From an uncultured Gammaproteobacteria bacterium (lineage in GTDB: Bacteria; Patescibacteriota; Patescibacteriia; UBA1558; 2-01-FULL-52-15), in contig CAYOCJ010000002.1 of NCBI GenBank assembly GCA_964402565.1, positions 661 to 64,660 of the forward strand: a DNA stretch of 64,000 nt, written 5' to 3'. Below are positions 2,215-17,814 of the stretch, piece after piece (position 1 is the first letter of the stretch; each line of letters begins with the position of its first letter). The position numbers were made by a program, and so were the translations under genes. The notes beneath the pieces are model-generated. The model did no database searches and was not told the origin of the DNA. It worked only from the letters and a program-made list of their open reading frames with translations.

Positions 2215-4476
2215 TCAGCGGGACGACGGTATCTGGTATATCTGTATATACGGGCTACTCGAGACGAGGGGTAGCTTTTGCAGCACTTCGGCCAATCTAT
2301 AGTTCAAGTAGCTGAACACCGGATATGCATCGGGCGATCGCCGTATCTCCGAGGTAAAAGGAAGCAGAGTCGGCACAGCAATATGCGTCATACCATTCTG
2401 CTGCAAAGCAGTGATGAGGCTGTCTGTGGTAGAGTAGCGCATCGCATAGTCAAACCAATCATGATCATCCAGGTAATTATTAACATAGATATGTTGAGCA
2501 TTCCCATCGATAGCGGGATAGAAAGGATAGTTATCATTGGCCGCTATATTGAAAAGCACATAGTTCGAATCTTGTCGCTTCAATGCGTCAATCGTCTGAG
2601 CGACCTTGAATCCCTCTAGGTTATGTTGGCCCGCCAGATACTGCTGATCATTCGCGAGCATCAGTGTGGCATTCCGCACAGTTCCTGTGTGCAATGTCTG
2701 GACATAGGCGATCAGTAGTAAGAGCAACACCAGATAAGCCAGGCCACTATACTTGAGCTGGTCGAGATAATAAGCAAGCATCAGTACCAGCAGCGGAAAA
2801 AGAAAGTATAAGTAATGCAGCCAGCTCACCTGCATGAAATGCCATGCAAGATATGATGCTGTCGCAGCGAGAGCCAATTGTACAACAAAAGCATTCCGCT
2901 TCTTCAGAAGCGCGGCGGCACCAATAAGCAAGACTATCGGCCCCAGATAATCGACTGGCCAGCTACGCGTGACCAGGCTCGGCATCAGTAGCTGCGTCAG
3001 CCCACTCTGATCAATGTGTACTGTCAGATAATTCAGGGATTGCAATTCAGCGTAATAGTTCTTCTTTACAGCCGCGAACGCCTGACTGCTAGGCGCGGCG
3101 GCTTGCTGCGAGATCGAAAGAAATGGATACATGGGGCTGCCATACCGCAGCATATTGTATATACCCCATGGTGCGAAAGCTATGGCAGCGAAAAAACACA
3201 TAATAACAATGCCTCTTACTTTCTGCTTGATGGTGTCTGATTGAAAAAGTAGGAGCACTATAAGCGCCGGGATGAGAAGAAGAGCGCTATATTTTACCGC
3301 GAAGGCACTGCCTACAAAGAAGCCAGCGACAGCGAACGATCGACTGGAACGCTCATGACTCACAGTGAGTACAAGCGCTAGAGCTACGGTGGTGAACAAC
3401 AAGAGCAAAGCATCAGGACGGACGCTATAGAGCATGAAATCATTCATCAAGAGAATGGTGAGCAAGATACATGACCAGAAAGCTGCGCGCGGTTTCAAAC
3501 GCGAGACCGCGATACAAGCGAGAACGGCTGTCGTAAGTAAGAACAAATAGCTATTGAGTATCGCTATGGCCGGACGATACAGCTGCGCTATTGGAAGTAT
3601 CAGATAGGTGCTGGCAAAGGAGATTTGATTCACCGGAGAGATAAACTGCGTATAGCCACCATTCGTTAGGAATGTCAGCGGCACATTGAGATAGGTCTGC
3701 CAATCATCGAGCGAAAGGCTTGGATAGGTATAGTATCTGAACAGCAAGAGCGGCCCGAAGAGAACTGCAAGTAATCCTACTGTATACCACAGCGCTCGAG
3801 CATCTCCTATCTGTGATGACAAAGTGACCGTATGTATTTTTAACAGTAACGATTGCAGCCTAAGGCGATCCATCCAGATGAAATAGAGCGTGAGTACGGC
3901 GAGTATGATTGGAGCGATTGACAGTATGTGCAACAGGGAAAGAATAAAATATAGGAGTATGAGCATATACAAGCCGATGCCAAGCGTGACAAAAAATCCC
4001 ATCGCTCTATCTAATTCCAGACCGATCCTGCGTGTGGCCCGCAGACCGAGCGCATAGGCGAAGAGAGTAAGCCAAAGGTAGAGCAGATGCACTATACACA
4101 CATTGCATATGATGGCGACCACTCCTCCCACCATGGTATACAGATCACGTGAAACTGAACCGACTATCAATATATACAGATACACTGCTGCGTAGAATGA
4201 CACTGTATACGCGACACTGAAGCCGATCAATCGCCCTACATTGATCTTAATGGTTACGGCTCGATCCATCCCACGAAAGGCCGAACGAATGATCGCATAT
4301 AGTATCAAAAAAACGAGCAGCAACATCCCGATGCTGACGCAGATAACCTTGAATTGGAGCAGATCAGGTGGCCGCGCTCCACTCAATCCGAAGTACACAA
4401 TAAAAAAAACAAGCGCGACGCCAGCAAAAATGAACTCCTTGAAATCTTCTGGAGATAGACGGATCTTTCTCAACAT
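2215..4476 (-). CDS. Large polytopic membrane protein with C-terminal soluble domain (possible GT-C-type glycosyltransferase)
   Basis: 753 aa. About 14 hydrophobic helices in the N-terminal ~480 aa, then a ~250-aa hydrophilic domain. No diagnostic motif recognised. Confidence 0.35.
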   Translation of the reverse strand: MLRKIRLSPEDFKEFIFAGVALVFFIVYFGLSGARPPDLLQFKVICVSIGMLLLVFLILYAIIRSAFRGMDRAVTIKINVGRLIGFSVAYTVSFYAAVYLYILIVGSVSRDLYTMVGGVVAIICNVCIVHLLYLWLTLFAYALGLRATRRIGLELDRAMGFFVTLGIGLYMLILLYFILSLLHILSIAPIILAVLTLYFIWMDRLRLQSLLLKIHTVTLSSQIGDARALWYTVGLLAVLFGPLLLFRYYTYPSLSLDDWQTYLNVPLTFLTNGGYTQFISPVNQISFASTYLILPIAQLYRPAIAILNSYLFLLTTAVLACIAVSRLKPRAAFWSCILLTILLMNDFMLYSVRPDALLLLFTTVALALVLTVSHERSSRSFAVAGFFVGSAFAVKYSALLLIPALIVLLLFQSDTIKQKVRGIVIMCFFAAIAFAPWGIYNMLRYGSPMYPFLSISQQAAAPSSQAFAAVKKNYYAELQSLNYLTVHIDQSGLTQLLMPSLVTRSWPVDYLGPIVLLIGAAALLKKRNAFVVQLALAATASYLAWHFMQVSWLHYLYFLFPLLVLMLAYYLDQLKYSGLAYLVLLLLLIAYVQTLHTGTVRNATLMLANDQQYLAGQHNLEGFKVAQTIDALKRQDSNYVLFNIAANDNYPFYPAIDGNAQHIYVNNYLDDHDWFDYAMRYSTTDSLITALQQNGMTHIAVPTLLPFTSEIRRSPDAYPVFSYLNYRLAEVLQKLPLVSSSPYIQIYQIPSSR

Positions 4477-5238: not shown

Positions 5239-5589
5239 TTACAATTTGAGATCTGCGACTGCTTCATCGACGGATGACGCACGGTCCTGTCGTGGTTCGC
5301 GAGGCTCACGTGGTTCACGTCGCTCGCCCATTCGTTTTGAACCCTCTGGTTCGAAAATCTTCAGATTAACACGAGCATTATTCTTGGCGCCAATGACGCG
5401 AAGCAATGTTCGGAGGCTTCGTGCAGTCTGACCTTCACGGCCAATGATCTGGCCCATGTCGGTCGGATTCACCTTAAGGATTAAGAGAACACCCATCTCA
5501 TCGATCGTCCGCTCGACCTGTACGTCATTCGGGTTGTCAACCAACCGTTTGACAACGTACTCGAGGAACTCTTTGTCTTGTTCGGGCAT
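5239..5589 (-). CDS. KH-domain RNA-binding protein (YlqC/UPF0109-like)
   Basis: LILKVNPTDMGQIIGREGQTARSLRTLL carries the KH GxxG loop. Sits between rpsP and trmD. C-terminal PREPREPR repeats. Confidence 0.75.
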   Translation of the reverse strand: MPEQDKEFLEYVVKRLVDNPNDVQVERTIDEMGVLLILKVNPTDMGQIIGREGQTARSLRTLLRVIGAKNNARVNLKIFEPEGSKRMGERREPREPREPRQDRASSVDEAVADLKL

Positions 5590-5713
5590 CTGATTCGTAA
5601 CGTTAATACTTATGGTATAAGGTACTGCGCAGTAGTATCCGTATGACCTGTACGGGCATCACTGCGTGGTGACTTTAGTATAGCAAGTACTACTCCACTG
5701 TCAAAAAACGAGC

Positions 5714-6109
5714 TTAAGCAGCCGACGCCTGTTCTGTCGGGGCAGCTTCTTCTGAGGCTGGCGCCTCAGCAGCAGGAGCTGCGGGCTGATCCGCTTTTTC
5801 CTTCTCAGCCTTCTTCTCATCCAACTTGGCCTTGCGCTTCGTCGAAATATGAACGACTTTACGTCCAGCATCAGCTTGAATGATCTTATGCTTCAGGAGA
5901 AGATTATAGACCGTATCTGACGTGCCTGCGCCCAGCGTCAACCAATGGCTGATGCGATCAGCTTTCAGCACTGCCTCTTTCGTATGTGGATTATAGTGAC
6001 CAAGAAGCTCCAAGTAGTGGCCTTGGGTATCTTTCTGCTTCTCAGAAACTATGATGCGGAAGAATGGCTTCTTCCGTTTACCGACACGAGAAAATCGTAT
6101 TGTCAGCAT
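5714..6109 (-). CDS. rpsP: 30S ribosomal protein S16 with Ala/Pro/Glu-rich C-terminal tail
   Basis: MLTIRFSRVGKRKKPFFRIIV...HYLELLGHYNP is a textbook bS16 N-terminus. Confidence 0.9.
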   Translation of the reverse strand: MLTIRFSRVGKRKKPFFRIIVSEKQKDTQGHYLELLGHYNPHTKEAVLKADRISHWLTLGAGTSDTVYNLLLKHKIIQADAGRKVVHISTKRKAKLDEKKAEKEKADQPAAPAAEAPASEEAAPTEQASAA

Positions 6110-6376
6110 AGTAATTTATTACTGGTAATTCTCTCTTTTCACTTGCATCAAGTGCGCGCCGCATGAAAAGAATAATGTATCTTGTTGTACTTCTGGTTCG
6201 ACCGATGATTCGACTGTACCCACTGAGCAAAGGATTGTCATGAGTATATCGAAAGACCGAAGTTTCAGTATACTACCTGCTTTGACTCAGGCTGTCAACC
6301 CATTAAGGGTTTTAATTCTATATGCTAGCTAGCTATACAAAACACTAAGCCTCGTGTTATACTATAGCCATTCAGT

Positions 6377-7228
6377 ATGCAAAAAATCACGAAAGCTATC
6401 ATTGCTGTTGCTGGAGCTGGGACTCGCTTCCTGCCAGCGACAAAATCCATGCCTAAAGAGATGCTTCCGATCGTCGACCGACCGATTATTCAGTTGGTCG
6501 TTGAGGAATTGGTCGAGGCAGGCATTACTGACATCATACTCGTTACTAAATGGGACAAAAAGCCTCTCGAAGATTACTTCGACCGCAGCCTGGGGCTCGA
6601 ACAGGATCTGGCAAAAGCAAAGAAGACTGAGCTCTTAACTAAGGTCAAAAGGGTCTCTGAAATGGCGAATTTCATCTATATTCGGCAGAAAGGTCCCTAT
6701 GGCAATGGGACACCCGTGTTGTCTGCCGCGAGCCTTGTCGCCAATGAACCTTTCGTCTTCGCCTGGGGAGATGATCTGGTCAGATCGAAAGTATCTTTCA
6801 CGAAACAGATGATCGATGACTATAGCAAAACCGGCCATCTGATGATCGGAGTCCAGAAAGTGCCCAAGAAAGATGTGCATCGCTATGGCATCGTGAAACT
6901 ACATAAGAACAGCATGCAGCTTGCCGACATTGTCGAAAAACCATCCATCGAGGAAGCGCCATCACAATACGCGGACTTCGGCCGCATGATCCTGAATCAG
7001 GATATCATTTCAGTCTTGCAGAAAACGAGACTCGGCAAGGGCCGTGAACTGTGGATCGTCGACGCGATCCGTGGCTATATCAAGGCCGGCGGCGCGTTCT
7101 TCGCGAAAGCCATTACCAATGGTGAGTGGCTAACCACCGGAGATCCTCTGAACTTCATGAAAGCCTATCTCGAGTACGCCATGGACTATCCAGAGTTACG
7201 CGCCTATCTCAAAAAGAAAAAGTTCTAA
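6377..7228 (+). CDS. galU: UTP--glucose-1-phosphate uridylyltransferase
   Basis: KAIIAVAGAGTRFLPATKSMPKEMLPIVDRPIIQ, a GalU-type nucleotidyltransferase signature. Confidence 0.85.
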   Translation: MQKITKAIIAVAGAGTRFLPATKSMPKEMLPIVDRPIIQLVVEELVEAGITDIILVTKWDKKPLEDYFDRSLGLEQDLAKAKKTELLTKVKRVSEMANFIYIRQKGPYGNGTPVLSAASLVANEPFVFAWGDDLVRSKVSFTKQMIDDYSKTGHLMIGVQKVPKKDVHRYGIVKLHKNSMQLADIVEKPSIEEAPSQYADFGRMILNQDIISVLQKTRLGKGRELWIVDAIRGYIKAGGAFFAKAITNGEWLTTGDPLNFMKAYLEYAMDYPELRAYLKKKKF

Positions 7229-7240
7229 CAAACACAACAC

Positions 7241-8632
7241 ATGGATTCCAAATATATCCTAATTCCTGTCGCCATCGGGGGCCTCATCCTCGCGGTACTT
7301 GTATACTTTACGGTCGTCCAAATCACCAACAGCGGGAAAGCGAAAAACTATCCTCCGGTCGTCCTCCAGTATTGGGGCGTCAATGAAACACCCGAAGACA
7401 TCTCGCTCCTCACGAAAGCATATACAGCTCGCCATCCGAAGATCAGCATCAACTACCGAACATTCCGTGAGGATGAGTATAAGCAGAAATTGCTCGAGGC
7501 ATGGGCCTTGGGTCAGGGGCCGGATATGTTCATGATCCCTTCTACGAAGATCCGCGAATTCATGAAATTCATCACGCCGATGCCGGCGACCATGAACTCT
7601 CCGGTGCAATACCAAAAAGGTACCATCAAAAAAGAGACCGTCGATGAAGTTCGCGCCTACCCTGGGCTCACGCCAAGTGATATCAAAAATACCTTCCTCG
7701 ATGTTGTCTCGAATGACGTGGTCATTGACAACAAGATATGGGGACTTCCCTATAGCGTCGACACACTCTCGGTCTACTATAATCGTGAGATGCTGAAAAA
7801 CGCGAATATCCCACTTCCCGCCAAGAGCTGGGAAGAGTTGATCGCGCAAGCGCCCGCCATAACGAAGCTGGATTCCAATGACACTATTGTGCAGTCAGCT
7901 ATCGCGATGGGAACGACGAATAATATACCAACCGCCCTTGAGATCATCATCAACCTCATGATGCAGATAGGCGTGCATATCAGTGACGCTTCCGGTCCGC
8001 TCTTCCATACCAATCCAGACAGCCTGAAAGCTATTGATTTTTTCCTGACCTTTGCCCAAAAAGGTCTTTCAAATTACTCCTGGAACAAGGATCTCCCTGA
8101 TGCTTTTGATCAATTTACCTCAGGGAAATTGGCTTACTTCATCGGGTATCCTTACCACGCGAATCTCATTAAACAAGCTAATCCGCAGCTCGACTTCGAT
8201 GTCATACCGATGTTCCAGACAGCAGGGGCCGAAAATCCGCCAAGTTATGCGTCTTACTGGGTTACCGTGGTGACTAAACCTCGCGCCGGGGAATCTACCC
8301 AGAAATCCGAGCTTGCCTGGCAATATTTGCTTGAAAGCACGGCGAAAGATAATGTGAATACGTTCCTTACCAACCCAACCCATCCACGCACGACCGCGCT
8401 CCGAGCATTGGTCGATACCCAAAAATCCGATCTCTTCCTCGGCCCATTCGCTCAGAGTTTACTGAATAGCCAAAGCTGGTACCAAGGGTATAATTATGAT
8501 CTCGCGAAAAAATACTTCCTCGATATGATAAATAACCTCAGCACTACGACCCCTATGGGAGCTGCCGGGCCGCAACAATTCCTCAGTGCTGGCGCTGATC
8601 TCATACGACAAACCTATTCACCGACCGAATGA
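7241..8632 (+). CDS. Membrane-anchored extracellular solute-binding protein (ABC substrate-binding family 1-like)
   Basis: 463 aa. N-terminal TM/signal anchor followed by a periplasmic-binding-protein-like domain. Its stop overlaps the start of the next gene (ATGA). Confidence 0.45.
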   Translation: MDSKYILIPVAIGGLILAVLVYFTVVQITNSGKAKNYPPVVLQYWGVNETPEDISLLTKAYTARHPKISINYRTFREDEYKQKLLEAWALGQGPDMFMIPSTKIREFMKFITPMPATMNSPVQYQKGTIKKETVDEVRAYPGLTPSDIKNTFLDVVSNDVVIDNKIWGLPYSVDTLSVYYNREMLKNANIPLPAKSWEELIAQAPAITKLDSNDTIVQSAIAMGTTNNIPTALEIIINLMMQIGVHISDASGPLFHTNPDSLKAIDFFLTFAQKGLSNYSWNKDLPDAFDQFTSGKLAYFIGYPYHANLIKQANPQLDFDVIPMFQTAGAENPPSYASYWVTVVTKPRAGESTQKSELAWQYLLESTAKDNVNTFLTNPTHPRTTALRALVDTQKSDLFLGPFAQSLLNSQSWYQGYNYDLAKKYFLDMINNLSTTTPMGAAGPQQFLSAGADLIRQTYSPTE

Positions 8633-9321
8633 AATCATCGACTCGCCTCATGCTACTCTGTTGTATCGTCGTGAGCTTCGCGCTCAGCGCCGCATTGACC
8701 GCAGCGCAAGCTCAAACCAACCCCAATGCCATCCTTCGTGGAGAAGGAACGGCCGCAGGGATCGGCGCGGATGCGAATAACCCGGTCACGCTCGCTGACT
8801 GTACGAATACCGGCAACTGCAGCATCGAACATATACTGCTTCTCGCGAACAGCATCATACGCTGGGCAGTGGCGATCAGCGGATCGGTTGCTCTCCTCAT
8901 GTATGTCATCGGGGGCGTTTGGATGATCTTCTCACAGGGAAACTCGAGCCGGATCGAACACGGCAAAGATATTATCGTCGGCACCAGCATCTCGCTCATC
9001 TTCATTCTGGGAGGATGGCTCATTATTCAATTCGCTCTGCAGAGCGTGGGAGCGAAGAGTCAATTCCTCTTGAAACCGAACAACTGTGGTACGAGCGGTG
9101 AGTGCCCTTATGGACAAGTGTGCTCGAAGAATAAATGTGTCGAGCGCTGTGTCACTGACAAAGCCGAGAAAGATCCTGATCATCCATGGCAGTGTCAGGA
9201 TATGAACCAATGCGGCATAGCATCAGCGAATGACTGCTCAGCGCATTCCGGAAATTGCGCTCTCAATCTCTGCATCACACAACCAGCGAACATCGTCTGC
9301 TGCTGGAATCCGAATTTATAG
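8629..9321 (+). CDS. T4SS-pilin/TrbC-VirB2-like two-helix protein with Cys-rich C-terminal extension (paralog 1)
   Basis: Signal peptide, then helix-VIGGVWMIFSQGNSSRIEHGKD-helix, then a ~95-aa tail with 16 Cys. Confidence 0.5.
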   Translation: MKSSTRLMLLCCIVVSFALSAALTAAQAQTNPNAILRGEGTAAGIGADANNPVTLADCTNTGNCSIEHILLLANSIIRWAVAISGSVALLMYVIGGVWMIFSQGNSSRIEHGKDIIVGTSISLIFILGGWLIIQFALQSVGAKSQFLLKPNNCGTSGECPYGQVCSKNKCVERCVTDKAEKDPDHPWQCQDMNQCGIASANDCSAHSGNCALNLCITQPANIVCCWNPNL

Positions 9322-9353
9322 CATTTTTCCAAAAAAACAAGTACCATACATCT

Positions 9354-9797
9354 ATGCAATACAAAATAAAATCACGGACCATACTGTTCGGCATAGTGTT
9401 TGTGGCAATACTATCTCTGTCGTTGCTCTTCAGCGCTCAGAGTGTCCGAGCGCAAGGTTGCTATCCAAGTGATTTTGTCGGACCACTACCACCAGGCGCT
9501 GTACGTTGCGCTGCCACTGGTGGCGGAACTGGCATCCCCCTACAGAACCCTATCAACGCAACCAGCGTTCCTGAGCTGGTGAACTCAATAGTCAAAGCAA
9601 TCCTCGGTATGGTCGGTGCTCTCGCACTCTTCATGTTCGTCTATGGCGGTATGCTGTGGATGACTTCCGCTGGAAATGCTCAGCGGATCGAGAAAGGTAA
9701 AGAAACGTTGATCTGGGCGACCATAGGTCTGGTCATCATCTTCGCGAGCTATGCAATATTGAGCTTTATTTTCACCGCGCTCAGTGGGAAAAGCTAA
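9354..9797 (+). CDS. T4SS-pilin/TrbC-VirB2-like small membrane protein (paralog 2)
   Basis: Signal peptide; FVYGGMLWMTSAGNAQRIEKGKE lies between two hydrophobic helices. Start chosen at MQYKIKS rather than the upstream in-frame Met, which overlaps paralog 1. Confidence 0.5.
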   Translation: MQYKIKSRTILFGIVFVAILSLSLLFSAQSVRAQGCYPSDFVGPLPPGAVRCAATGGGTGIPLQNPINATSVPELVNSIVKAILGMVGALALFMFVYGGMLWMTSAGNAQRIEKGKETLIWATIGLVIIFASYAILSFIFTALSGKS

Positions 9798-9798
9798 C

Positions 9799-9826
9799 TT
9801 GCAAAATAAGCGTTTTGTGGTATAAT
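9799..9826 (+). promoter_or_regulatory. Sigma-70-type promoter with extended -10 (TTGCAA-16-TGgTATAAT)
   Basis: Read directly from the sequence. It is 57 bp upstream of the paralog-3 ATG. A GGGGGTG Shine-Dalgarno lies 6 nt before the ATG at 9884. Confidence 0.6.
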
Positions 9827-9883
9827 TGTCATAGTTCTTTCTGGCGTTTACCATCTTAAAGTAACATGAAAGGGGGTGAATAC

Positions 9884-10243
9884 ATGAAAAAACTACTCAC
9901 AAAGGCATATCGCGTGGCTTATCTAGCTCCTCTGGCCCTCGGTGCAACAGCCCACGCACAAGGAGTTTCCATTGACTTTCCAAGTTCATTCGCTGGTTTC
10001 AGTTCGCAAGACCTGAAGACCACGATCCAGAACATCATTCGGATCATCGTTGGTTTCCTTGGCATCATTACCATCTTGATTATTCTCGCTGGTGGCTTCA
10101 AATGGATGACCTCAGGCGGTAGCGAAGATAAGATCGGAGAAGCAAAGAAACTTATCAGCGCTGGCGTTGTCGGTCTCGTTGTTGTCCTCGCTGCTTACGC
10201 AATCGCAAGCTTCGTTGTCAACAGTCTGCAGAAAGCTGTCTAG
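9884..10243 (+). CDS. T4SS-pilin/TrbC-VirB2-like small membrane protein (paralog 3)
   Basis: MKKLLTK... signal peptide ...AGGFKWMTSGGSEDKIGEAKK... second helix. Start moved to the Met that has the Shine-Dalgarno. Confidence 0.55.
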   Translation: MKKLLTKAYRVAYLAPLALGATAHAQGVSIDFPSSFAGFSSQDLKTTIQNIIRIIVGFLGIITILIILAGGFKWMTSGGSEDKIGEAKKLISAGVVGLVVVLAAYAIASFVVNSLQKAV

Positions 10244-10264
10244 AAGCCTCAAGATACACAGAGC

Positions 10265-10300
10265 ACCAACCGCTGCGGTATTCCGCAGCGGTTGGTTTTT
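10265..10300 (+). terminator. Rho-independent terminator
   Basis: accaaccgctgcgg-tattc-ccgcagcggttggt followed by TTTTT. Confidence 0.7.
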
Positions 10301-10376
10301 ATATATTAGTGTTATGTCAGACCTAGAGACAACCATCTAGAGATACGCTTATACACTATCTCTATAATGATCCAAG

Positions 10377-10404
10377 TTGCAAAATAAGCGTTTTGTGGTA
10401 TAAT
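10377..10404 (+). promoter_or_regulatory. Duplicate copy of the extended -10 promoter
   Basis: Identical TTGCAA-16-TGgTATAAT, 578 bp downstream of the first copy. Confidence 0.6.
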
Positions 10405-10461
10405 TGTCATAGTTCTTTCTGGCGTTTACCATCTTAAAGTAACATGAAAGGGGGTGAATAC

Positions 10462-10821
10462 ATGAAAAAACTACTCACAAAGGCATATCGCGTGGCTTAT
10501 CTAGCTCCTCTGGCCCTCGGTGCAACAGCCCACGCACAAGGAGTTTCCATTGACTTTCCAAGTTCATTCGCTGGTTTCAGTTCGCAAGACCTGAAGACCA
10601 CGATCCAGAACATCATTCGGATCATCGTTGGTTTCCTTGGCATCATTACCATCTTGATTATTCTCGCTGGTGGCTTCAAATGGATGACCTCAGGCGGTAG
10701 CGAAGATAAGATCGGAGAAGCAAAGAAACTTATCAGCGCTGGCGTTGTCGGTCTCGTTGTTGTCCTCGCTGCTTACGCAATCGCAAGCTTCGTTGTCAAC
10801 TCATTACAGCAGGCCGTCTAA
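10462..10821 (+). CDS. T4SS-pilin/TrbC-VirB2-like small membrane protein (paralog 4, duplicate of paralog 3)
   Basis: Protein identical to paralog 3 except the C-terminal ...SLQQAV versus ...SLQKAV. Confidence 0.55.
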   Translation: MKKLLTKAYRVAYLAPLALGATAHAQGVSIDFPSSFAGFSSQDLKTTIQNIIRIIVGFLGIITILIILAGGFKWMTSGGSEDKIGEAKKLISAGVVGLVVVLAAYAIASFVVNSLQQAV

Positions 10822-10893
10822 TCTTTCTTACGACTTACAGTCTAAGCTATCCCTCCTCTTCTATGGGGAGGGGAAGTATATACTCTAAGATCC

Positions 10894-11301
10894 ATGCGAA
10901 AAATAATTACGCGTTCTATTCCCAGCACACTCAGTTTCTTATTTTTTTTTATTGTGGGGTCAAAAGCCCTCGCAGATGATCCGTTTGGACTCAAGGGAGC
11001 TGCGAGCGGCACCGGCGTTTCGACAGCAGAGCTAACGGGTCAGGGCTCTATCATTTCGGTCGTCATTTTCAATTTACTAGGTATAGTCGGCGTGATCTTC
11101 CTAATACTCATGATCTGGGGAGGGACCATGTGGATGACCTCAGGCGGTAATGAGAAGCGCGTCGGCACCGCGAAGAGCATACTCACGACCGCGGTCATAG
11201 GGCTGGTCATAGTGCTCATGGCCTATAGCATTACTTACTTCATCGTACAGAATCTAACAGCGGTACAAGGACCAGCAAGCGCTGGATCTGGCAGCCCTTA
11301 A
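10894..11301 (+). CDS. T4SS-pilin/TrbC-VirB2-like small membrane protein (paralog 5)
   Basis: IWGGTMWMTSGGNEKRVGTAKS lies between two hydrophobic helices. Gly/Ser/Ala tail. Confidence 0.5.
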   Translation: MRKIITRSIPSTLSFLFFFIVGSKALADDPFGLKGAASGTGVSTAELTGQGSIISVVIFNLLGIVGVIFLILMIWGGTMWMTSGGNEKRVGTAKSILTTAVIGLVIVLMAYSITYFIVQNLTAVQGPASAGSGSP

Positions 11302-11312
11302 CACAACCACCC

Positions 11313-11714
11313 ATGAAAAAAATATTTCAATATGTCTGGCTTCTTCTTCTCGGCTTACCAACACTCACACTTGCAGCAGTGCCACCAACGCTGCAAAATC
11401 TAGATCTCGTCGGCAAAGGAAGTGGCTACCAGCAAAGTGACATTAAGATGACCATCGTTGGTATCATACAAGTACTGCTTGGTTTTATTGGTATTGTCTT
11501 TTTCATACTCATCCTCTGGGGAGGTTTTCAATGGATGACCTCGGGGGGTAATGAGAAAAAAATAGAAGACGCCAAAAAACGCCTTACGAGCGCTACTATC
11601 GGTCTCGTTCTGGTGCTTATGTCATACGCCATAGCAAGATCTATCAACTTGTGGCTCGCAGCCGCAGTCGGTAATGGCGCTACTTCCAACGCAGCGGGCA
11701 GCGGCAGCCCTTAA
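11313..11714 (+). CDS. T4SS-pilin/TrbC-VirB2-like small membrane protein (paralog 6)
   Basis: Signal peptide; LWGGFQWMTSGGNEKKIEDAKK between helices. The tail ...NAAGSGSP matches paralog 5. Confidence 0.5.
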   Translation: MKKIFQYVWLLLLGLPTLTLAAVPPTLQNLDLVGKGSGYQQSDIKMTIVGIIQVLLGFIGIVFFILILWGGFQWMTSGGNEKKIEDAKKRLTSATIGLVLVLMSYAIARSINLWLAAAVGNGATSNAAGSGSP

Positions 11715-11792: not shown

Positions 11793-12440
11793 CTAGCTGA
11801 TGTCCCTACAATACGGGACGTTATCGTGTTGCTCCGGAAAGTAGCCGAAGACGAACGCGAAGTCAACGACCCGATTGCCGGGGCACACATGGTCTCGGCC
11901 GTACCAGTCGATGTCTTGCGATCCGGCATACTCGATCGTCATTCCGTGAGGCCCCGCCTTGTGCGCGATGAACTGGAAACTTCCGCCGGTCGTATACAGC
12001 TTGATCCAAGGACCAGGCGAACGCCTGCGAAGGGTCACGTCTTCGACGGCGCCGACAGGGAGCCAGCACGGATCGTTCGATGCTGGCTGTTCGATACGGT
12101 TCTCTGAGCCGTAACAGACCGAAACCATTGAGGTCAAGTAGGTGATCTCGAAGGGGAAGTAGTTGTCTACCACCCCAATCTGCTCCACCGTACCGTTCTC
12201 GCCGAGCTCCTTGAGCACCGGCTGTGGCCGCGGTTGCCCAGGGATCAACGAACTCGGCGACTGGGCCATGTAATGGACGCTCGGGCCTTCGCCGGCCGGG
12301 GGCAGCTGAACCTTGGAAGGCAACCACCGAGTGACCACGCTTCCATCGGGTTGCCGACGGGTCACGCAGCCGAAGCTGCCGAGGAGGAGGATGAAAACCA
12401 TCATGACCAGAGGGAAAAGAGACAGTTTTCTGGACCGCAC
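11793..12440 (-). CDS. Secreted hypothetical protein in a GC-rich patch
   Basis: 215 aa. N-terminal signal peptide (LSLFPLVMMVFILLLGSF). No recognised domain. Local G+C is clearly above the flanks. Confidence 0.45.
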   Translation of the reverse strand: MRSRKLSLFPLVMMVFILLLGSFGCVTRRQPDGSVVTRWLPSKVQLPPAGEGPSVHYMAQSPSSLIPGQPRPQPVLKELGENGTVEQIGVVDNYFPFEITYLTSMVSVCYGSENRIEQPASNDPCWLPVGAVEDVTLRRRSPGPWIKLYTTGGSFQFIAHKAGPHGMTIEYAGSQDIDWYGRDHVCPGNRVVDFAFVFGYFPEQHDNVPYCRDIS

Positions 12441-12611
12441 AGCGATCTCCTTCTTTAGGCCATAAGGCCTGATTGTTCGATCGTTTATTGTTCTGGTACG
12501 AAGGTGCTGCGTAATACTACTCAGACATCTTAACTATCTATTATACCTTTTATTGTATTTTTTGTCAATAGACTATCACCATCCCCTTTTTTGGGCTAAA
12601 ATGAGCACTAT

Positions 12612-14513
12612 ATGCTGGAGTTCAAACATACCAAAAAAATAGAACCACTATGGCTACTATGGTCAGCCATACTGTGCTATACGATCTTGTTCAGCATACT
12701 AGTCCTGTGGAAATACGCTCACTTCTACTATGACAATCTGGACCTGGCTATTTTCAATAATGTGTTCTGGAACACCTTGCATGGGCACTGGTTCCAGGCG
12801 AGCATACATCCGCCAAGCTACCTGGGTGACCACTTTTCGCCCTCCTTGTTTTTGCTCATGCCGTTCTATGCACTAGCGCCCACTCCTCAGACACTCCTCA
12901 TCCTGCAAACAGTAGCGCTTGGATTGTCAGCGCAACCCATCTATTTGATCAGTGAGTATATTGTTGGCAAGGAACGGAAATGGATGCCGCTGTTCATCAG
13001 CATGCTCTGGCTGGTGAATCCTCTGGTACATAATATGAATTTCTTTGAGTTCGAGCTTATGTCCTTTGCTGTGCTGGGGCTACTCTGGACGATCTGGGCC
13101 TATCTCAAAGAGAAACCAACCCTCTTCATCATTGCTTCTCTCTTCACTCTCGGCATGCGCGAAGACTTCGTCTGTATCTTTTTTGTATTCAGCATACTGG
13201 CCCTGCTGGATAAACGATCACTATTCTGGAAGCTCTATCCAATCCTTTCTTCGGCGGCATGGGGCATTCTTGCCTTCTGGACGATCAGTCTCTATGCGCC
13301 ACAGAATTCGTATAAATTTTTACGCTACTATGACTGGCTCGGGGGCACTACTCTCTGGTCCATCATCGCGAGTTTCGCCCTGCATCCGATCCAAGTACTC
13401 GCGCATCTCACCACCTGGTATAACCTGGAATTCGTGCTTGGGTTATTGTTCCCGTTCTTCTTCTTTGTCTCATTCCGGAATCGATACTCCCTGCTACTCA
13501 TTCCTCCTGCGGCGCAAATACTGCTGGCAGGTTTCGGAGGAAGCGGACTCATACTCGGCACCTACTATGCCGGTTACCTTGTTGCCATACTGTTCCTCTT
13601 ATTCGCGCTGCAGGTACGAGATTTCGACTTCACAAAACTTCCTGGATGGCTGCCGGTAGAACTCCGCTCACGACGCGTACTCTCTGCGATCATCGCTTGT
13701 GCCGCACTCTATGCTGCCGCGACCTATGGATCGATCTCGACCGCTCTTGCTTGGTGGCAGAAGCCGCATGAGCTAGTTGCTAAAGAGCATATGCTTGCTG
13801 CACTGCCTAGCGATGCTGCAGTCGCTACGACCTACTCCCTGCTACCGACCGTTTCTAGTCGACAGTATGTGTACTTATTCCCTTATGCCGCGATCGGTAA
13901 AAATCAATTCGCATTGAGTGAGTATGCGCTGCCGGAAAACACCGAGTATCTGCTTATTGATTGGGATGAAATGGTATTAGCGCAGATGCATTTCAGTCAA
14001 AACGCCGCTTTCAGTCCGTATGCAGATACGGTACCCAAAAATCTTCGAACTATACTATCTCAATTTTCTATCATTAGAGCAGAAGGTCCTATCTATGTAT
14101 TACAACGAGCTACTGATGCCGGCACAGTACAGCAGCTTGCCGCACTACGGCATACTTCTCAAACCGCGGACGCTGCAGCGACTATCACGCAAGTATCGCC
14201 AGATGCTGATCATATCGCCGTAACGATCGCTCTGCCGCAAAAGACAAACACCCAGAAATACTACTACCTTGAAGTGTCTGACGCTAGCGAAACATTCCGC
14301 CTACCGCTCGGGTACGATCTGTTTGGAATTGGCGAGCTCGACGGAGCGTCTACCGTACACATGCCTGTATTCATTGGTCCGGCCACGAAAAATATTATGC
14401 TGCGGCTCTATGCCTGGAGCAAAGGATCGATTGAGTTGAGCGGGATCAAGAGCATCCATCCGACGAGCGATGCCACAGAAATCAGTAGTTACAGTTACAA
14501 TACAACGCGATAG
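12612..14513 (+). CDS. Polytopic membrane protein (DUF2079-like / GT-C-like)
   Basis: 633 aa. N-terminal pattern YDNLDLAIFNNVFWNTLHGHWFQASIHPPSYLGDHFSP recalled as DUF2079-like. About 12 TM helices, then a soluble C-terminus. Confidence 0.4.
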   Translation: MLEFKHTKKIEPLWLLWSAILCYTILFSILVLWKYAHFYYDNLDLAIFNNVFWNTLHGHWFQASIHPPSYLGDHFSPSLFLLMPFYALAPTPQTLLILQTVALGLSAQPIYLISEYIVGKERKWMPLFISMLWLVNPLVHNMNFFEFELMSFAVLGLLWTIWAYLKEKPTLFIIASLFTLGMREDFVCIFFVFSILALLDKRSLFWKLYPILSSAAWGILAFWTISLYAPQNSYKFLRYYDWLGGTTLWSIIASFALHPIQVLAHLTTWYNLEFVLGLLFPFFFFVSFRNRYSLLLIPPAAQILLAGFGGSGLILGTYYAGYLVAILFLLFALQVRDFDFTKLPGWLPVELRSRRVLSAIIACAALYAAATYGSISTALAWWQKPHELVAKEHMLAALPSDAAVATTYSLLPTVSSRQYVYLFPYAAIGKNQFALSEYALPENTEYLLIDWDEMVLAQMHFSQNAAFSPYADTVPKNLRTILSQFSIIRAEGPIYVLQRATDAGTVQQLAALRHTSQTADAAATITQVSPDADHIAVTIALPQKTNTQKYYYLEVSDASETFRLPLGYDLFGIGELDGASTVHMPVFIGPATKNIMLRLYAWSKGSIELSGIKSIHPTSDATEISSYSYNTTR

Positions 14514-16147
14514 ACCGTGAGCGGCCCTGCGTTCATAACTTTCTTCACGAAAGGCGCTGTCTCAAGCCACTGCACTTCATGCCCTAACCGAAGTGAGCTA
14601 ACGACGATATAAGATATCGTCTCTTGTTGTAAAAAGTTCTTGCGCAACTCAAGACTCGCCGAGGTTTCCGGCTCTGAAAAGAACCAATCCATCTGCTGCT
14701 GTTTCAGCGGCGCCTGCGGTGTCTGATGATCATGTCCGCGAAAGACGAGCCGATTCAATTCGCTGGTGAGCGTGAACGATGTTTTCATGTCTGAAGTCAG
14801 CAGGTGATCATTCACCGTCGTTGCACCTCGCAGAAAATCTATCACCTGCTTCTCATCTGGCGTGATATAGTAGTAGCCATACCCATACGCGCTCGGTTCA
14901 AAATAGAGATTGATAACAAAATACAGACCAAGAGAACTGCCGAGCGCCACAGCAAGGATAAGCACGTAGATTACCCGAAGCCATTGCCTGTGTATCGCGC
15001 GGAAAAGGTAGCTGCATCCAGCATAGGCCGTTATCGCCAAAACAATATGCCAGCCATTGATGAAGCGCCTATTCACATCGAGCGGAAGATATAAGAGCAG
15101 CGGTATGATAGCGCACCAAATCAAGATCATCGCCCACCATGGATCATGCTTCTTCTGTGTGCCCATCATGAACAATCCCACGAGCGCTAAGGGTAGGAGC
15201 AATCCATATCCCCAGAGGTAGTTCGTTATGAGCGGCGAATACACCAGGTTCTGCTCATACCATGATCGCAAGACCGGCTCACTGAAAAGCGCGTAGAAAT
15301 TATAGGCAATAGTTATGAGCGCGGCGCAACCCAATAACATGAAACGCTTCAAGCTCAACCATGAGCCAGAAGTATAGATATGCCACACCGTCCATGAGCC
15401 TAAGACGGCGAAGACAATAGGCATATCATAGGGATGCATAGTACCGAGCACCAGTATGATGGCAGCGTTCACGCTATCCCAGAGCCAATTAACCTTCTCT
15501 CGATACCTGACAAAGATGAACGCGCTCGCGACTAAGGCGACCTGCGAAAAACTGAACAAAGGCGCTTGAGCGAAATTCAATAAGGTATTCCCCTCAGTAA
15601 CATACAGATCAACCGGCGAAAAGAAAAATTTTATCTGACTCGACGCCTGTAGGAGCCACGGATGCGTGATCAGATAGAGCCAGCCAAACCCTCCGGAAAA
15701 ATAGACGAAAAGACCGGCGATGACCCGCTCGACTTCATGAACAAAGAGCTGCGCCAAAAATAAATATAGCAGCCAGCAAAAGATAAGCGTGAAAAGAACT
15801 CGGTAGATCTGGTAAGCCGCATTGTTCGTCAGGTTGAACCAAGCCCCAGTCTGCCCTATCACATACCATACTGGCGAGAGCATACGTCCATGCTGCGGAT
15901 CGGTCGTATGCACATTGCGCATGAACAGTATCCCCTCCCTTCCCTGCTGTATCATATTCTTATAGACCATCTTGTCAGCAGCAGTGTAGGGATTCGCGCC
16001 AGTATACGCATACCCTGCCGGCGTATGCACGGCAAAGTTCAACTGTCCCATACTTGTGAGCAGCACGAATGTTACTGACGCTACACCATACAACCAATGC
16101 TCCCGCGTTACTCGCCTCACATACTGATAGGCTGATCGAATATTCAT
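14495..16147 (-). CDS. Polytopic membrane protein, GT-C-like (paralog B)
   Basis: 550 aa. Shares with the next ORF the N-terminal Y-x-YTGA...AAD-K-x-VY...MIQQG-x-EG-x-LFM-x-NVHT-x-x-PQ and C-terminal GH-x-HQT...MDWFF-x-EP-x-TS. Confidence 0.45.
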   Translation of the reverse strand: MNIRSAYQYVRRVTREHWLYGVASVTFVLLTSMGQLNFAVHTPAGYAYTGANPYTAADKMVYKNMIQQGREGILFMRNVHTTDPQHGRMLSPVWYVIGQTGAWFNLTNNAAYQIYRVLFTLIFCWLLYLFLAQLFVHEVERVIAGLFVYFSGGFGWLYLITHPWLLQASSQIKFFFSPVDLYVTEGNTLLNFAQAPLFSFSQVALVASAFIFVRYREKVNWLWDSVNAAIILVLGTMHPYDMPIVFAVLGSWTVWHIYTSGSWLSLKRFMLLGCAALITIAYNFYALFSEPVLRSWYEQNLVYSPLITNYLWGYGLLLPLALVGLFMMGTQKKHDPWWAMILIWCAIIPLLLYLPLDVNRRFINGWHIVLAITAYAGCSYLFRAIHRQWLRVIYVLILAVALGSSLGLYFVINLYFEPSAYGYGYYYITPDEKQVIDFLRGATTVNDHLLTSDMKTSFTLTSELNRLVFRGHDHQTPQAPLKQQQMDWFFSEPETSASLELRKNFLQQETISYIVVSSLRLGHEVQWLETAPFVKKVMNAGPLTVYRVVL

Positions 16148-17766
16148 GAACGTACCTTAAAAATTCTGACAGCGACCGAATCATAGACGCGCTGTACTCC
16201 TGGCAGTGTATCCAGCCAATCATACGAGGCTGTCATACTAGGTTTATAGATTATAATGCTGGTGATCTTGTTGTGAATGAGAAAATCCCTACGATTCGTA
16301 AAGGCTACTGATGTCTGAGGTTCGGCAAAGAACCAATCCATCTCATTCTTCTTCAGCTCATACTGTACCGTCTGATGCGCGTGCCCGACGAAGAGCCTCG
16401 TCGGCGCATATGCAGCTGAGAGTATGCCAATAAAACTAGTGCTCGGCAAGAGCACATCCTGATAGGTCAGCTGGTTGTGCAGCTGCGTCAAGGCATCGGT
16501 TATATACGGATCGAGATAGTAGTTATACTTCTCACTCAAGGTGGGCTGATAGAACAGCTGCTCAGCGATCTGATACAGCACTCCTGAAGAAAGCAGCATA
16601 GCACAGAAAATACCAACCGCGGCGCGTAGAGCAAAGGGTTTTACTGCACGCAGCAAATGCGTAAGCCCATACCAGCTAAGGAGACCCAAGGGTATCAACA
16701 AGGTATTCGCGAAACGCCGATTGATGGATGTCGGCTCATAGATCAATAGCAGTATCGCGAGCGCCCAAAACAAGACTAAGCGCCAATATTGGTCGTCCAA
16801 GGCTCGGTTACGCACCAAGTACCAAACACCGAGCAGCGCGAGCGGTCCAGTCATACCAATACCCCATAGATAATTACTGATGGAAGGCGAAAAGGCGATA
16901 TTCTGAGATAGCCAGCCAGATAATGCGGGCTCTCGAATAAGGCTGATGCCGTGGTAGATGCATGCTAGTGCCGCGCCCGTCACGAGTGGCCAGAGGCGAA
17001 TAACAATACTCGCGACGTCTTGTTGGAACACTTCGCTCAGAGCTAGAGCGGTAGTAACAATGATAAGCAGCGGTAGATCATAGGGATGCATCGCACCGAA
17101 GAGGGCAACGATGCACATGAGCGCCACACTCGACTTGAACGACCTCCGTTCTCGTAAAAACAAGAGCCACACTGCAAGTATCAACAGGTGTGAGAGTATG
17201 AATAGCGGCGACTGCAGCGTATTCGTGAAGGCGCTGAACTCTGTCACATACAGATCTATCGGTGTTTGATTAAAATGCTGCAACCAATGCACAGAGCTGT
17301 CGGCAATCTCAGGGTGAGCTATGAAATACAACCAGCCAAGGCCTGAGCTGAAAAGGACCAGGGCGAAAGCTCCGATCTGATCCCCTGTGTGAGCGAACAG
17401 TTTTCGGATAAAGCTATAGAGCAGCAATAAAAAACCAACTGTCGCTATCCAACGATAGAGATGATAGGCGAGCGGTATCGGCATATCGAGAAGTCGCGAA
17501 GTCATGCCGATAAGATACCAGTGCGGCGAGAAGAGTAGGCCGAGCTGCGGTTCGGACGTGTGCACATTCTGCATGAAGAGTCTGCCTTCCGCTCCCTGCT
17601 GTATCATCGAATAGTATACGAACTTATCAGCGACCGCTTCCAGGCCGGCGCCAGTATACTGATGCCCTGGCGGCGTTTCAAGATACAAACGTACAAAAAC
17701 GATATTCGTCGCAAGCAGAAAAAGCACTCCAATGCCGATGAACCATCGTTGCTTTCGTGTCTCCAT
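16144..17766 (-). CDS. Polytopic membrane protein, GT-C-like (paralog A), 4-nt overlap with paralog B
   Basis: 540 aa. Same conserved blocks as 14495-16147. The pair is a tandem duplication. Confidence 0.45.
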   Translation of the reverse strand: METRKQRWFIGIGVLFLLATNIVFVRLYLETPPGHQYTGAGLEAVADKFVYYSMIQQGAEGRLFMQNVHTSEPQLGLLFSPHWYLIGMTSRLLDMPIPLAYHLYRWIATVGFLLLLYSFIRKLFAHTGDQIGAFALVLFSSGLGWLYFIAHPEIADSSVHWLQHFNQTPIDLYVTEFSAFTNTLQSPLFILSHLLILAVWLLFLRERRSFKSSVALMCIVALFGAMHPYDLPLLIIVTTALALSEVFQQDVASIVIRLWPLVTGAALACIYHGISLIREPALSGWLSQNIAFSPSISNYLWGIGMTGPLALLGVWYLVRNRALDDQYWRLVLFWALAILLLIYEPTSINRRFANTLLIPLGLLSWYGLTHLLRAVKPFALRAAVGIFCAMLLSSGVLYQIAEQLFYQPTLSEKYNYYLDPYITDALTQLHNQLTYQDVLLPSTSFIGILSAAYAPTRLFVGHAHQTVQYELKKNEMDWFFAEPQTSVAFTNRRDFLIHNKITSIIIYKPSMTASYDWLDTLPGVQRVYDSVAVRIFKVRS

Positions 17767-17814
17767 ACTGAAAGTATTCTATCACAGCTCTGCCATCATA
17801 GACTATCATTGACG

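What the first reader, a model, noticed from the sequence alone, without database searches (positions are those of the whole stretch)
9799..10821. Perfect 578-bp tandem duplication of promoter plus pilin-like gene; copies differ only in the last six codons
Units 9799-10225 and 10377-10803 are identical by eye, including the consensus extended -10 promoter TTGCAA-16-TGgTATAAT, the GGGGGTG Shine-Dalgarno and the whole ORF. The final codons differ at several synonymous sites (agt ctg cag aaa gct gtc tag versus tca tta cag cag gcc gtc taa), with one K/Q change and unrelated 3'UTRs. Only the first copy has a canonical terminator. This points to a recent duplication, or ongoing gene conversion with a sharp recombination boundary inside the 3' end of the gene. 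Copy-number variation of the most strongly promoted pilin paralog is a plausible dosage or phase mechanism.
Basis: seen in the sequence. Interest (0 to 1): 0.6.

Follow-up and report, generated by a model that had tools for sequence, protein, structure and literature searches.

The report
Mosaic tandem duplicate of pilin gene
An uncultured ultra-small (CPR, Komeilibacteria-like) bacterium carries two side-by-side copies of a secretion-pilus subunit gene. The copies are letter-for-letter identical from the promoter to codon 113 but have unrelated 3' ends, which is an ordinary product of duplication plus recombination in a surface-protein gene family.

Summary
The repeat is real. Window 9799-10222 equals 10377-10800 exactly (424 bp, offset 578). 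Nine of the next 21 nt differ, and the downstream spacers are unrelated. It is therefore not a "perfect 578-bp duplication".

Both genes (9884-10243 and 10462-10821) belong to Pfam PF18895, the VirB2-like "T4SS pilin" family. They sit in a six-gene pilin array on a housekeeping stretch of a Komeilibacteria-like chromosome.

Eight related lineages keep the same synteny, promoter, ribosome-binding site and copy-2-type downstream hairpin, but each has only one copy. The novel material is therefore one repeat unit plus 10223-10376, which holds tail A and a strong terminator.

An independent short-read assembly of the same organism (Logan, SRR12313479, 0 mismatches) breaks exactly k-1 = 30 nt inside both outer repeat edges. 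The raw reads therefore contain two left and two right contexts for the repeat.

All nine differences fall in the last 21 of 445 positions (P about 2e-13), and the two tails are more diverged than the gene is from its nearest ortholog. This requires non-reciprocal recombination, most likely gene conversion, rather than a fresh whole-unit duplication.

Similar identical tracts between neighbouring pilin paralogs occur in 16 of the other 162 loci surveyed. The dosage and phase-variation ideas remain untested. Interest is modest.

The parts
8650..9321 (+). Pilin-like gene 1 of the array. It has a PF18895-like core and a Cys-rich C-terminal extension.
   Evidence: One search gives PF18895 24.8 bits, just below the cut-off. 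Logan's gene call is L160 3067-3738. Orthologs occupy the same position in L001, L004, L163 and L165.
9354..9797 (+). Pilin gene 2. Its stop codon TAA (9795-9797) lies 1 nt before the repeat starts.
   Evidence: One search gives PF18895 50 bits. Logan's gene call is L160 3771-4214.
9799..10222 (+). Repeat unit R, copy 1: promoter, 5' leader, ribosome-binding site and codons 1-113.
   Evidence: One search shows a 424-bp exact run at offset 578.
9799..9826 (+). Promoter-like site of copy 1: TTGCAA-16-TATAAT with a TG extension.
   Evidence: The site is conserved upstream of the single-copy orthologs.
9884..10243 (+). Pilin-3 gene, copy 1 (119 aa, ending ...NSLQKAV, TAG stop). The last 21 nt (10223-10243) form tail A.
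   Evidence: (P0121).
10244..10376 (+). Spacer A. This is unique sequence with no homolog in the window or in any fetched locus.
10265..10301 (+). Intrinsic terminator after copy 1: 14-bp stem, 4-nt loop, then TTTTT.
   Evidence: One search gives an MFE of -29.9 kcal/mol (centroid hairpin -29.2), z = -6.6.
10377..10800 (+). Repeat unit R, copy 2. Its promoter-like site is at 10377-10404.
10462..10821 (+). Pilin-3 gene, copy 2 (119 aa, ending ...NSLQQAV, TAA stop). The last 21 nt (10801-10821) form tail B.
   Evidence: (P0122).
10822..10893 (+). Spacer B, the ancestral downstream context. It holds a hairpin without a T-run (inner stem 10850-10873) and is directly followed by the ATG of pilin 4.
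   Evidence: It is homologous to the downstream spacers of L001, L004, L082, L083, L161, L163, L164 and L165.
10894..11301 (+). Pilin gene 4.
   Evidence: (PF18895 29.9 bits).
11313..11714 (+). Pilin gene 5.
   Evidence: (PF18895 34.6 bits).

Best explanation
The feature is a genuine, lineage-specific tandem pair of the 'pilin-3' gene. Pilin-3 is the one member of a conserved five-gene VirB2-like (PF18895) pilin array that has its own strong promoter. The host is a Komeilibacteria-like CPR bacterium.

The two copies are mosaics. A 424-bp tract from the -35 hexamer to codon 113 has been made identical very recently by non-reciprocal homologous recombination, that is, gene conversion or an equivalent unequal exchange. 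The last six codons, the stop codon and the 3' flanks have separate and much older histories.

Copy 1 keeps the ancestral upstream neighbour (pilin 2), but it ends in a non-orthologous tail and a strong intrinsic terminator. It is therefore an insulated single-gene transcription unit. Copy 2 keeps the ancestral tail, hairpin and read-through context into pilins 4 and 5.

The inferred consequences, which are not shown, are these. Template for this pilin roughly doubles without raising pilins 4 and 5. Two isoforms are made that differ only at residue 117 (K/Q). The 424-bp direct repeat can expand or collapse by RecA-type unequal crossing-over.
For: Shown directly:
- The 424-bp tract is exactly identical and all 9 differences lie in the last 21 nt, P = 1.7e-13.
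- Both genes match PF18895 above its cut-off. The AF2 model has a signal helix plus a confident alpha-hairpin, H44-75/H81-118.
- Eight related lineages have one copy in the same position. Six of them show the full flanking synteny S16 - NTP-transferase - SBP - pilins 1-5 - reverse gene - DUF2079: L001, L004 (the same sequence as L080 and L081), L163, L164, L165. L082, L083 and L161 are short contigs that show only the pilin-2 end, one copy, and the spacer-B-type downstream.
- All orthologs conserve the promoter, the ribosome-binding site, a TCN Ser codon and TAA stop in the tail, and a spacer-B-type downstream region. Tail A (AGT...TAG) and spacer A match none of them.
- Tails A and B differ from the nearest ortholog's tail (L161) at 4 and 5 non-overlapping positions. 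Their mutual 9/21 differences exceed the gene-wide 14.5% divergence from L161. The tails are therefore at least as old as that species split, while R shows 0/424 differences.
- Logan contigs from run SRR12313479 match the window with 0 mismatches. One ends at 9828 and the other starts at 10771, exactly 30 nt (k-1) inside the two outer R edges. This is the signature of a repeat with two left and two right contexts in the reads. Logan assemblies of the single-copy relatives run straight through.
- Both proteins are in an NCBI record on a 512,989-bp contig.
- There is family-level precedent. In 17 of 163 loci, pilin paralogs share at least 80% core identity. Several are 96-100% identical in the core but unrelated in the N-terminal and upstream regions. 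In L045 and L112 the paralogs are 99% and 96% identical within each genome but 70-74% between genomes.
Against: - No read-level data were available, so the copy number (2 or more) and the absolute identity of the two R units are unverified. Bubble-popping by the assembler could hide a few SNPs.
- The donor of tail A and spacer A was not found. The dispersed paralog P0017 of the same organism has a different tail and flank.
- 21 nt is a small sample for dating the tails.
- An old tandem duplication followed by conversion does not on its own explain why spacer A retains no similarity to spacer B, when orthologous spacers remain alignable across species. A further replacement or insertion event is needed.
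- The expression consequences rest on motif scans and folding only.
Confidence: 0.62

Rival explanations
1. The duplication is very recent, and the 3' end of copy 1 was replaced afterwards. A recombination with DNA from another strain, species or unseen paralog, whose pilin gene is followed by a canonical terminator, swapped in tail A and spacer A. In this reading no conversion of R was needed.
For: R shows 0/424 differences. Tail A encodes a homologous pilin C-terminus (SLQKAV, the same peptide as the nearest ortholog L161), but with an AGT Ser codon and a TAG stop that no ortholog has. Spacer A is foreign to all eight orthologous loci. A distant paralog, L005, uses AGC CTG ... GCT GT followed by a T-run terminator.
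Against: No donor was found in the window, in 165 fetched loci or in viral contigs. This scenario needs two events whose boundaries coincide with the end of R. It is still a non-reciprocal recombination among pilin homologs, so it differs from the best explanation only in the order of events.
Confidence: 0.22
2. The feature is an assembly artefact. Either two strain variants of a single-copy locus were threaded in tandem, or two somewhat diverged paralogs were made artificially identical by consensus or bubble-popping.
For: The source is a metagenome-derived genome. Short-read assemblers cannot count copies of a 424-bp repeat reliably, and the Logan contigs stop at the repeat. No second full-length assembly across the region could be retrieved.
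Against: The Logan contig L160 ends 30 nt into R. This means the first k-mers of R have two different predecessors in the reads, which a tail-only strain polymorphism would not produce. The unique 154-bp segment made of tail A and spacer A is flanked by R on both sides in the assembled path, and it contains no k-mer-scale repeat that could cause a false join. Both protein variants are recorded in an NCBI assembly on a 513-kb contig.
Confidence: 0.07
3. This is a selected copy-number switch. The direct repeat is maintained because expansion and collapse by unequal crossing-over tunes the dose of the major pilin, or toggles between the K and Q isoforms, within the population.
For: A 424-bp perfect direct repeat is an efficient substrate for homologous recombination (established knowledge). 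The duplicated gene carries the only strong promoter in the array. The single amino-acid difference falls at the most variable of 94 mature-protein positions. Copy number differs between lineages, 1 versus 2. L138 has a 2.5-unit array.
Against: There is no evidence of within-population heterogeneity. Eight relatives manage with one copy. Any tandem duplicate has these properties without being selected for switching.
Confidence: 0.09

Closest known systems
VirB2-like pilin arrays of Patescibacteria/CPR (PF18895/PF04956), as surveyed in PMC12102498
   Same: The Pfam family is the same. The layout is also the same: an array of small, same-strand pilin genes, each with a signal peptide and two hydrophobic helices, in a CPR genome. 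That survey found 441 arrays of 2-11 genes in 383 assemblies.
   Different: The survey reports high divergence within arrays, with a mean of 25% and a maximum of 54% amino-acid identity. Here two members are 99.2% identical in protein and 100% identical over 424 nt including the promoter. No VirB4 or VirB6 gene was seen among the window ORFs scanned.
Tandem amplification, diversification and concerted evolution of trwL (a virB2 homolog) in the Bartonella Trw type IV secretion locus (Nystedt et al. 2008, as cited in PMC2883598)
   Same: Both involve tandem copies of a T4SS pilin gene whose number varies between related lineages. In both, recombination among copies obscures orthology, and variation is concentrated in surface-exposed parts.
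   Different: Bartonella has 5-8 diverged copies inside a complete T4SS operon of a diderm pathogen, and their role in adhesion to erythrocytes has been demonstrated. Here there are two near-identical copies in an uncultured CPR bacterium with no functional data. Each copy has its own promoter.
Gene conversion between duplicated bacterial genes, for example tufA/tufB in enterobacteria (own knowledge, not tested here)
   Same: Both show identical tracts with sharp edges between paralogs, flanked by unrelated sequence.
   Different: The tuf copies are dispersed housekeeping genes. Here the copies are adjacent and the tract includes the promoter.
Pilin antigenic variation by pilE/pilS cassettes in Neisseria (own knowledge)
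   Same: Both involve non-reciprocal recombination among pilin gene copies.
   Different: Neisseria pilin is a type IV pilus subunit, an unrelated family. It uses silent promoterless cassettes and a dedicated G4-dependent mechanism, and the variable region is what gets transferred. Here both copies are complete and carry promoters, and it is the conserved part that is homogenised.

Membership tests
Pfam PF18895 (T4SS_pilin) | HMM score above the curated gathering threshold | tested here: met
   both copies score 40.1 bits against a 26.6 cut-off, E = 3.8e-10, covering profile positions 3-71 of 71. All 120 listed homologs carry PF18895.
Pfam PF04956 (TrbC/VirB2 pilin) | HMM score above the gathering threshold | tested here: not met
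   26.6 bits against a 27.9 cut-off, so narrowly below. Precomputed annotations list PF04956 for many homologs.
VirB2-type conjugative/T4SS pilins | Cleavable signal peptide followed by two hydrophobic helices that form a hairpin with a short basic loop | tested here: met
   The sequence begins MKKLL...ATAHA|QG. The AF2 model has H3-22, then H44-75 and H81-118 with pLDDT above 90.
VirB2-type conjugative/T4SS pilins | Structural or sequence similarity to solved VirB2/TraA pilins | tested here: inconclusive
   The PDB profile search found only chance hits with E at least 0.25. Foldseek against the PDB gave a best E of 0.63, all generic helical hairpins.
VirB2-type conjugative/T4SS pilins | Genetic linkage to T4SS machinery (VirB4, VirB6 and others) | tested here: not met
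   Twenty of the larger window ORFs were scanned with Pfam and are housekeeping, glycosyltransferase or unknown genes. None is VirB4, VirB6 or VirD4. Not every ORF was scanned, and the rest of the 513-kb contig was not seen. Linkage is also absent in many Patescibacteria.
VirB2-type conjugative/T4SS pilins | Polymerises into an extracellular pilus | not testable with these tools
   This needs microscopy or biochemistry.
Tandem gene family under concerted evolution (gene conversion) | Paralogs within a genome are more alike than orthologs between genomes | tested here: met
   The copies are 100% identical over 339 coding nt, against 85.5% to the nearest ortholog L161 and 72% to the dispersed paralog P0017.
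Tandem gene family under concerted evolution (gene conversion) | Mosaic structure: an identical tract with sharp boundaries next to diverged or unrelated flanks | tested here: met
   Differences are 0/424 in the tract against 9/21 in the tails, P = 1.7e-13. The flanks are unalignable.
Tandem gene family under concerted evolution (gene conversion) | The duplication predates the homogenised tract, for example shown by two-copy relatives | tested here: inconclusive
   Tail divergence suggests an old split, but all eight relatives have a single copy.
Phase-variable or copy-number-variable locus | Heterogeneous copy number within one population | not testable with these tools
   No reads were available. 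Logan contigs only show branching at the repeat edges.
Diversity-generating retroelement target (TR/VR pair) | Mismatches confined to adenines of one repeat, with a reverse transcriptase nearby | tested here: not met
   At the nine mismatches, copy 1 has A,G,T,C,G,A,A,T,G and copy 2 has T,C,A,T,A,C,G,C,A, so there is no adenine bias. No reverse-transcriptase domain was found among the scanned ORFs.

The most novel reading that the evidence does not exclude
In CPR pilin arrays, recurrent gene conversion keeps the membrane and assembly core of neighbouring VirB2-like paralogs identical, so that they can co-polymerise. Selection preserves different exposed ends. Here that is the C-terminal tail, where the K/Q difference sits at the most variable residue of the family. 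Elsewhere it is the N-terminal domains. This would be a constant-core, variable-tip system for making mixed or alternative pili that match different host surfaces. The duplicated promoter-bearing unit with its added terminator would allow one isoform to be dosed independently.
Probability: 0.12. Interest if true: 0.55.

Novelty: new member of a known kind. Interest (0 to 1): 0.3.

Why it matters
VirB2-like pilin arrays are a hallmark of CPR/Patescibacteria, and in Southlakia epibionticum they are reported to be essential for epibiotic growth (cited in PMC12102498). The published survey describes array members as highly diverged, with at most 54% identity.

This locus, together with 16 of the other 162 loci surveyed here, shows that neighbouring members can also be homogenised by recombination, sometimes completely and including the promoter. 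That matters in three ways:
- Orthology and paralogy assignment in these arrays can be misled.
- Short-read MAGs will tend to break or collapse at such sites.
- It offers a concrete case for testing whether pilin dose or C-terminal variants affect host attachment.

It is not a new mechanism.

Tried and rejected
- Exact-protein look-ups of both copies, in 119-aa and 125-aa versions, found nothing in the contig index. The proteins do exist as NCBI cluster members P0121 and P0122.
- Scans of genome contigs and metagenome contigs returned no hit above 86% identity, so no second full assembly of this species was obtained.
- A BLAST search for the origin of tail A and spacer A in the window and in all fetched loci found no hit. 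An exact search for the terminator in viral contigs gave 0 hits.
- The spacers do not align with each other.
- The dispersed paralog P0017 was tested as a donor of tail A and rejected, because its tail and flank are different.
- A DGR explanation was rejected on the mismatch pattern.
- A PDB sequence-profile search and a Foldseek search gave only non-specific helical-hairpin matches.
- My first pairwise-identity survey used free end gaps and produced meaningless 100% values. It was discarded and replaced by the ungapped core comparison.
- I tested the idea that conversion tracts always stop before the C-terminal tail. It holds for the window, L045 and L112. It fails for L015, L051 and L138, where the tails are identical, and for L034, where they differ at one residue. 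It is therefore not a rule.

Full report
**Observation**

A base-by-base comparison at offset 578 shows a single uninterrupted identical run, 9799-10222 = 10377-10800, 424 bp long. The title's "perfect 578-bp tandem duplication" is imprecise, because 578 bp is the period and 154 bp of each period (10223-10376) is unique.

The run begins at the first base of a promoter-like site, TTGCAA-16-TATAAT with a TG extension. It includes the leader, the GAAAGGGGGTGAATAC ribosome-binding region and codons 1-113 of a 119-codon ORF (ATG at 9884 and 10462).

The last six sense codons plus the stop differ at 9 of 21 nt: AGT CTG CAG AAA GCT GTC TAG against TCA TTA CAG CAG GCC GTC TAA. This gives one amino-acid change, K117Q.

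The spacers that follow, 10244-10376 and 10822-10893, are unalignable. Copy 1 is followed by a canonical intrinsic terminator (14-bp stem at 10265-10296 plus a T-run; structure of about -29 to -30 kcal/mol, z = -6.6). Copy 2 is followed by a hairpin without a T-run.

The probability that all nine differences fall in the last 21 of 445 positions by chance is 1.7e-13.

**What the genes are**

Both copies match Pfam PF18895 (T4SS_pilin) at 40.1 bits against a cut-off of 26.6. They fall just short of the PF04956 (TrbC/VirB2) cut-off.

Together with four neighbours (8650-9321, 9354-9797, 10894-11301, 11313-11714) they form a same-strand array of six PF18895 genes.

An AlphaFold2 model built on 57 homologs gives a signal helix, a low-confidence linker and a confident two-helix hairpin, H44-75/H81-118. 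Searches of solved structures by sequence or fold give nothing specific. Family membership therefore rests on the HMM and the architecture.

The surrounding 64 kb is ordinary chromosome. It encodes S16, a nucleotidyl transferase, a solute-binding protein, DUF2079, PMT-type glycosyltransferases, purine-synthesis genes, a sigma-70 factor, trigger factor, NusA and an H+-pyrophosphatase. No T4SS machinery was found among the ORFs scanned.

The closest relatives are Candidatus Komeilibacteria MAGs.

**Comparative evidence**

Eight related lineages have exactly one pilin-3 gene in this position.
- L001, L004 (the same sequence as L080 and L081), L163, L164 and L165 show the full context: S16 - NTP-transferase - SBP - pilins 1 to 5 - a reverse-strand gene - DUF2079.
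- L082, L083 and L161 are short contigs that show only the end of pilin 2, a single copy, and the spacer-B-type downstream region.

All of them conserve four features:
- the promoter (TTGCAA or a close variant, about 16-17 nt, then TGnTATAAT);
- the ribosome-binding region;
- a TCN Ser codon and a TAA stop in the tail;
- a downstream spacer of the copy-2 type, running from an "…ACAGTCTAGACTA…" motif through a GC-rich hairpin to "…CTCTAA…ATGCG", which includes the pilin-4 start.

Copy 1 therefore has the ancestral left context and copy 2 has the ancestral right context. The added material is one R unit plus tail A and spacer A (10223-10376).

Tail A is homologous to a pilin C-terminus. It encodes SLQKAV, the same peptide as the nearest ortholog L161. 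It is written with an AGT Ser codon and a TAG stop that no ortholog uses. Spacer A matches nothing in the window, in 165 fetched loci or in viral contigs.

Tails A and B differ from the L161 tail at 4 and 5 non-overlapping positions. Their mutual divergence (9/21) exceeds the largest divergence in any 21-nt window between this gene and L161 (maximum 8, mean 3.1; gene-wide identity 85.5%).

The 3' ends therefore have separate histories at least as old as that species split, while the 424-bp tract has no differences at all. A single fresh duplication cannot produce this pattern. A non-reciprocal recombination among pilin homologs is required in every scenario I could construct.

**Is it an assembly artefact?**

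The neighbouring proteins are found, with identical sequence, on two Logan contigs assembled independently from run SRR12313479.
- Contig _1078161 equals window 5584-9828.
- Contig _268230 starts at window 10771.
- Both match the window with 0 mismatches.

These ends lie exactly 30 nt (k-1 for k = 31) inside the left edge of R copy 1 and the right edge of R copy 2. A de Bruijn graph gives this result when a repeat has two distinct predecessors and two distinct successors. A polymorphism restricted to the tail would not create the left-hand branch.

Logan assemblies of the single-copy relatives run straight through the locus.

Both protein variants (P0121 and P0122) are recorded from NCBI on a 512,989-bp contig.

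The tandem arrangement is therefore very likely real. Two points cannot be verified without reads: the exact copy number, and whether a few true SNPs inside R were smoothed away.

**Family context**

I collected 965 PF18895-like ORFs in 163 loci, including the window.

In 17 loci, at least one pair of paralogs shares 80% or more nucleotide identity over the 210-nt core. In L015, L034, L045, L112, L051, L057 and L138 the core is 96-100% identical. For all of these except the L057 pair and copies 2-3 of L138, the first 90 coding nt and the upstream 60 nt are at background similarity.

In L045 and L112 the two adjacent paralogs are 99% and 96% identical within each genome but only 70-74% identical between genomes. 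This is the classical signature of concerted evolution.

Only the window and L138 (a 2.5-unit array with period 709) show identity over the whole gene plus its upstream region.

The 2025 survey of Patescibacteria T4SS genes describes 441 VirB2 arrays with a mean of 25% and a maximum of 54% amino-acid identity within arrays (PMC12102498). Near-identical members and conversion tracts were not noted there.

The closest described analogue is the tandem amplification, diversification and concerted evolution of trwL (a virB2 homolog) in Bartonella (Nystedt et al. 2008, cited in PMC2883598).

**Mechanism**

Shown:
- The pair is tandem and lineage-specific.
- The identical tract is bounded by non-homologous flanks.
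- Copy 1 ends in a strong terminator.
- Copy 2 keeps the ancestral hairpin and the immediately following pilin-4 start.
- The only protein difference (K117Q) lies at the most variable of 94 mature-protein columns among 20 close homologs, with 9 residue types and 2.84 bits of entropy.

Inferred:
- The tract was homogenised by gene conversion between two copies. This is my preferred reading, at about 0.6.
- Alternatively, a fresh duplicate had its 3' end replaced by recombination with an unseen homolog (about 0.2).
- Copy 1 is a monocistronic unit that raises pilin-3 dose without raising pilins 4 and 5.
- The direct repeat can expand or collapse by homologous recombination.

**Verdict**

The explanation is a familiar evolutionary process, tandem duplication plus gene conversion in a surface-protein gene family, in a clade where it had not been pointed out. 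It is a new member of a known kind and of modest interest.

Noticed in passing
L045 2885-3130 vs 3483-3728; L112 4837-5073 vs 5435-5671; L034 9767-10279 vs 10389-10934; L015 7314-7742 vs 7768-8181; L051; L057: In several other CPR genomes, adjacent PF18895 paralogs share a 96-100% identical C-terminal core. In most of these pairs the N-terminal domains and upstream regions are unrelated; the L057 pair is an exception, at 92% identity over the first 90 nt. In L045 and L112 the within-genome identity (99% and 96%) far exceeds the between-genome identity (70-74%). This is concerted evolution that the published survey did not describe; it reports a maximum of 54% identity within arrays.
   Followed up: partly
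L138 5955-7698: This is a 2.5-unit perfect tandem array (period 709) of a 244-aa pilin with a Cys-rich N-terminal domain, in a JGI metagenome contig. The first unit has a different N-terminal half.
   Followed up: partly
L162 4142-4498 (Logan SRR12313479, same organism/run): A dispersed third paralog of the duplicated pilin (P0017; 84% amino-acid and 72% nucleotide identity) sits between two class-II aminoacyl-tRNA-synthetase genes. L002 and L003 appear to be its orthologs in other Komeilibacteria. Its tail and flank differ from tail A, so it is not the donor.
   Followed up: partly
L006 7698-9344: A pilin domain is fused to a C-terminal extension of more than 430 residues rich in Gly, Pro and Thr. 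Another pilin gene follows directly. It may be a tip or adhesin-type pilin.
   Followed up: no
window 12540-12568 (-): A perfect 12/12 sigma-70 consensus promoter (TTGACA-17-TATAAT) lies about 100 nt upstream of the reverse-strand 215-aa gene 11793-12440. That gene has no Pfam match and is a conserved neighbour of the pilin array in all syntenic loci.
   Followed up: no
window 14495-19413 (-): Three consecutive large ORFs (550, 540 and 532 aa) have no Pfam match. They lie next to DUF2079 (12612-14513), and PMT_2 glycosyltransferase-like ORFs lie further off in the window (2215-4476, 45954-47666). The first is conserved next to the array in relatives. They may be envelope glycosylation machinery.
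   Followed up: no
window 8650-9321: The first gene of the array has a pilin core followed by a Cys-rich tail of about 95 residues (…CGTSGECPYGQVCSKNKCVERC…CCWNPNL). This tail is conserved in the orthologous arrays.
   Followed up: no
window 5584: The independent Logan contig L160 starts at window 5584, just downstream of the S16 gene. This is another graph break, so a repeat or strain variant may lie there.
   Followed up: no
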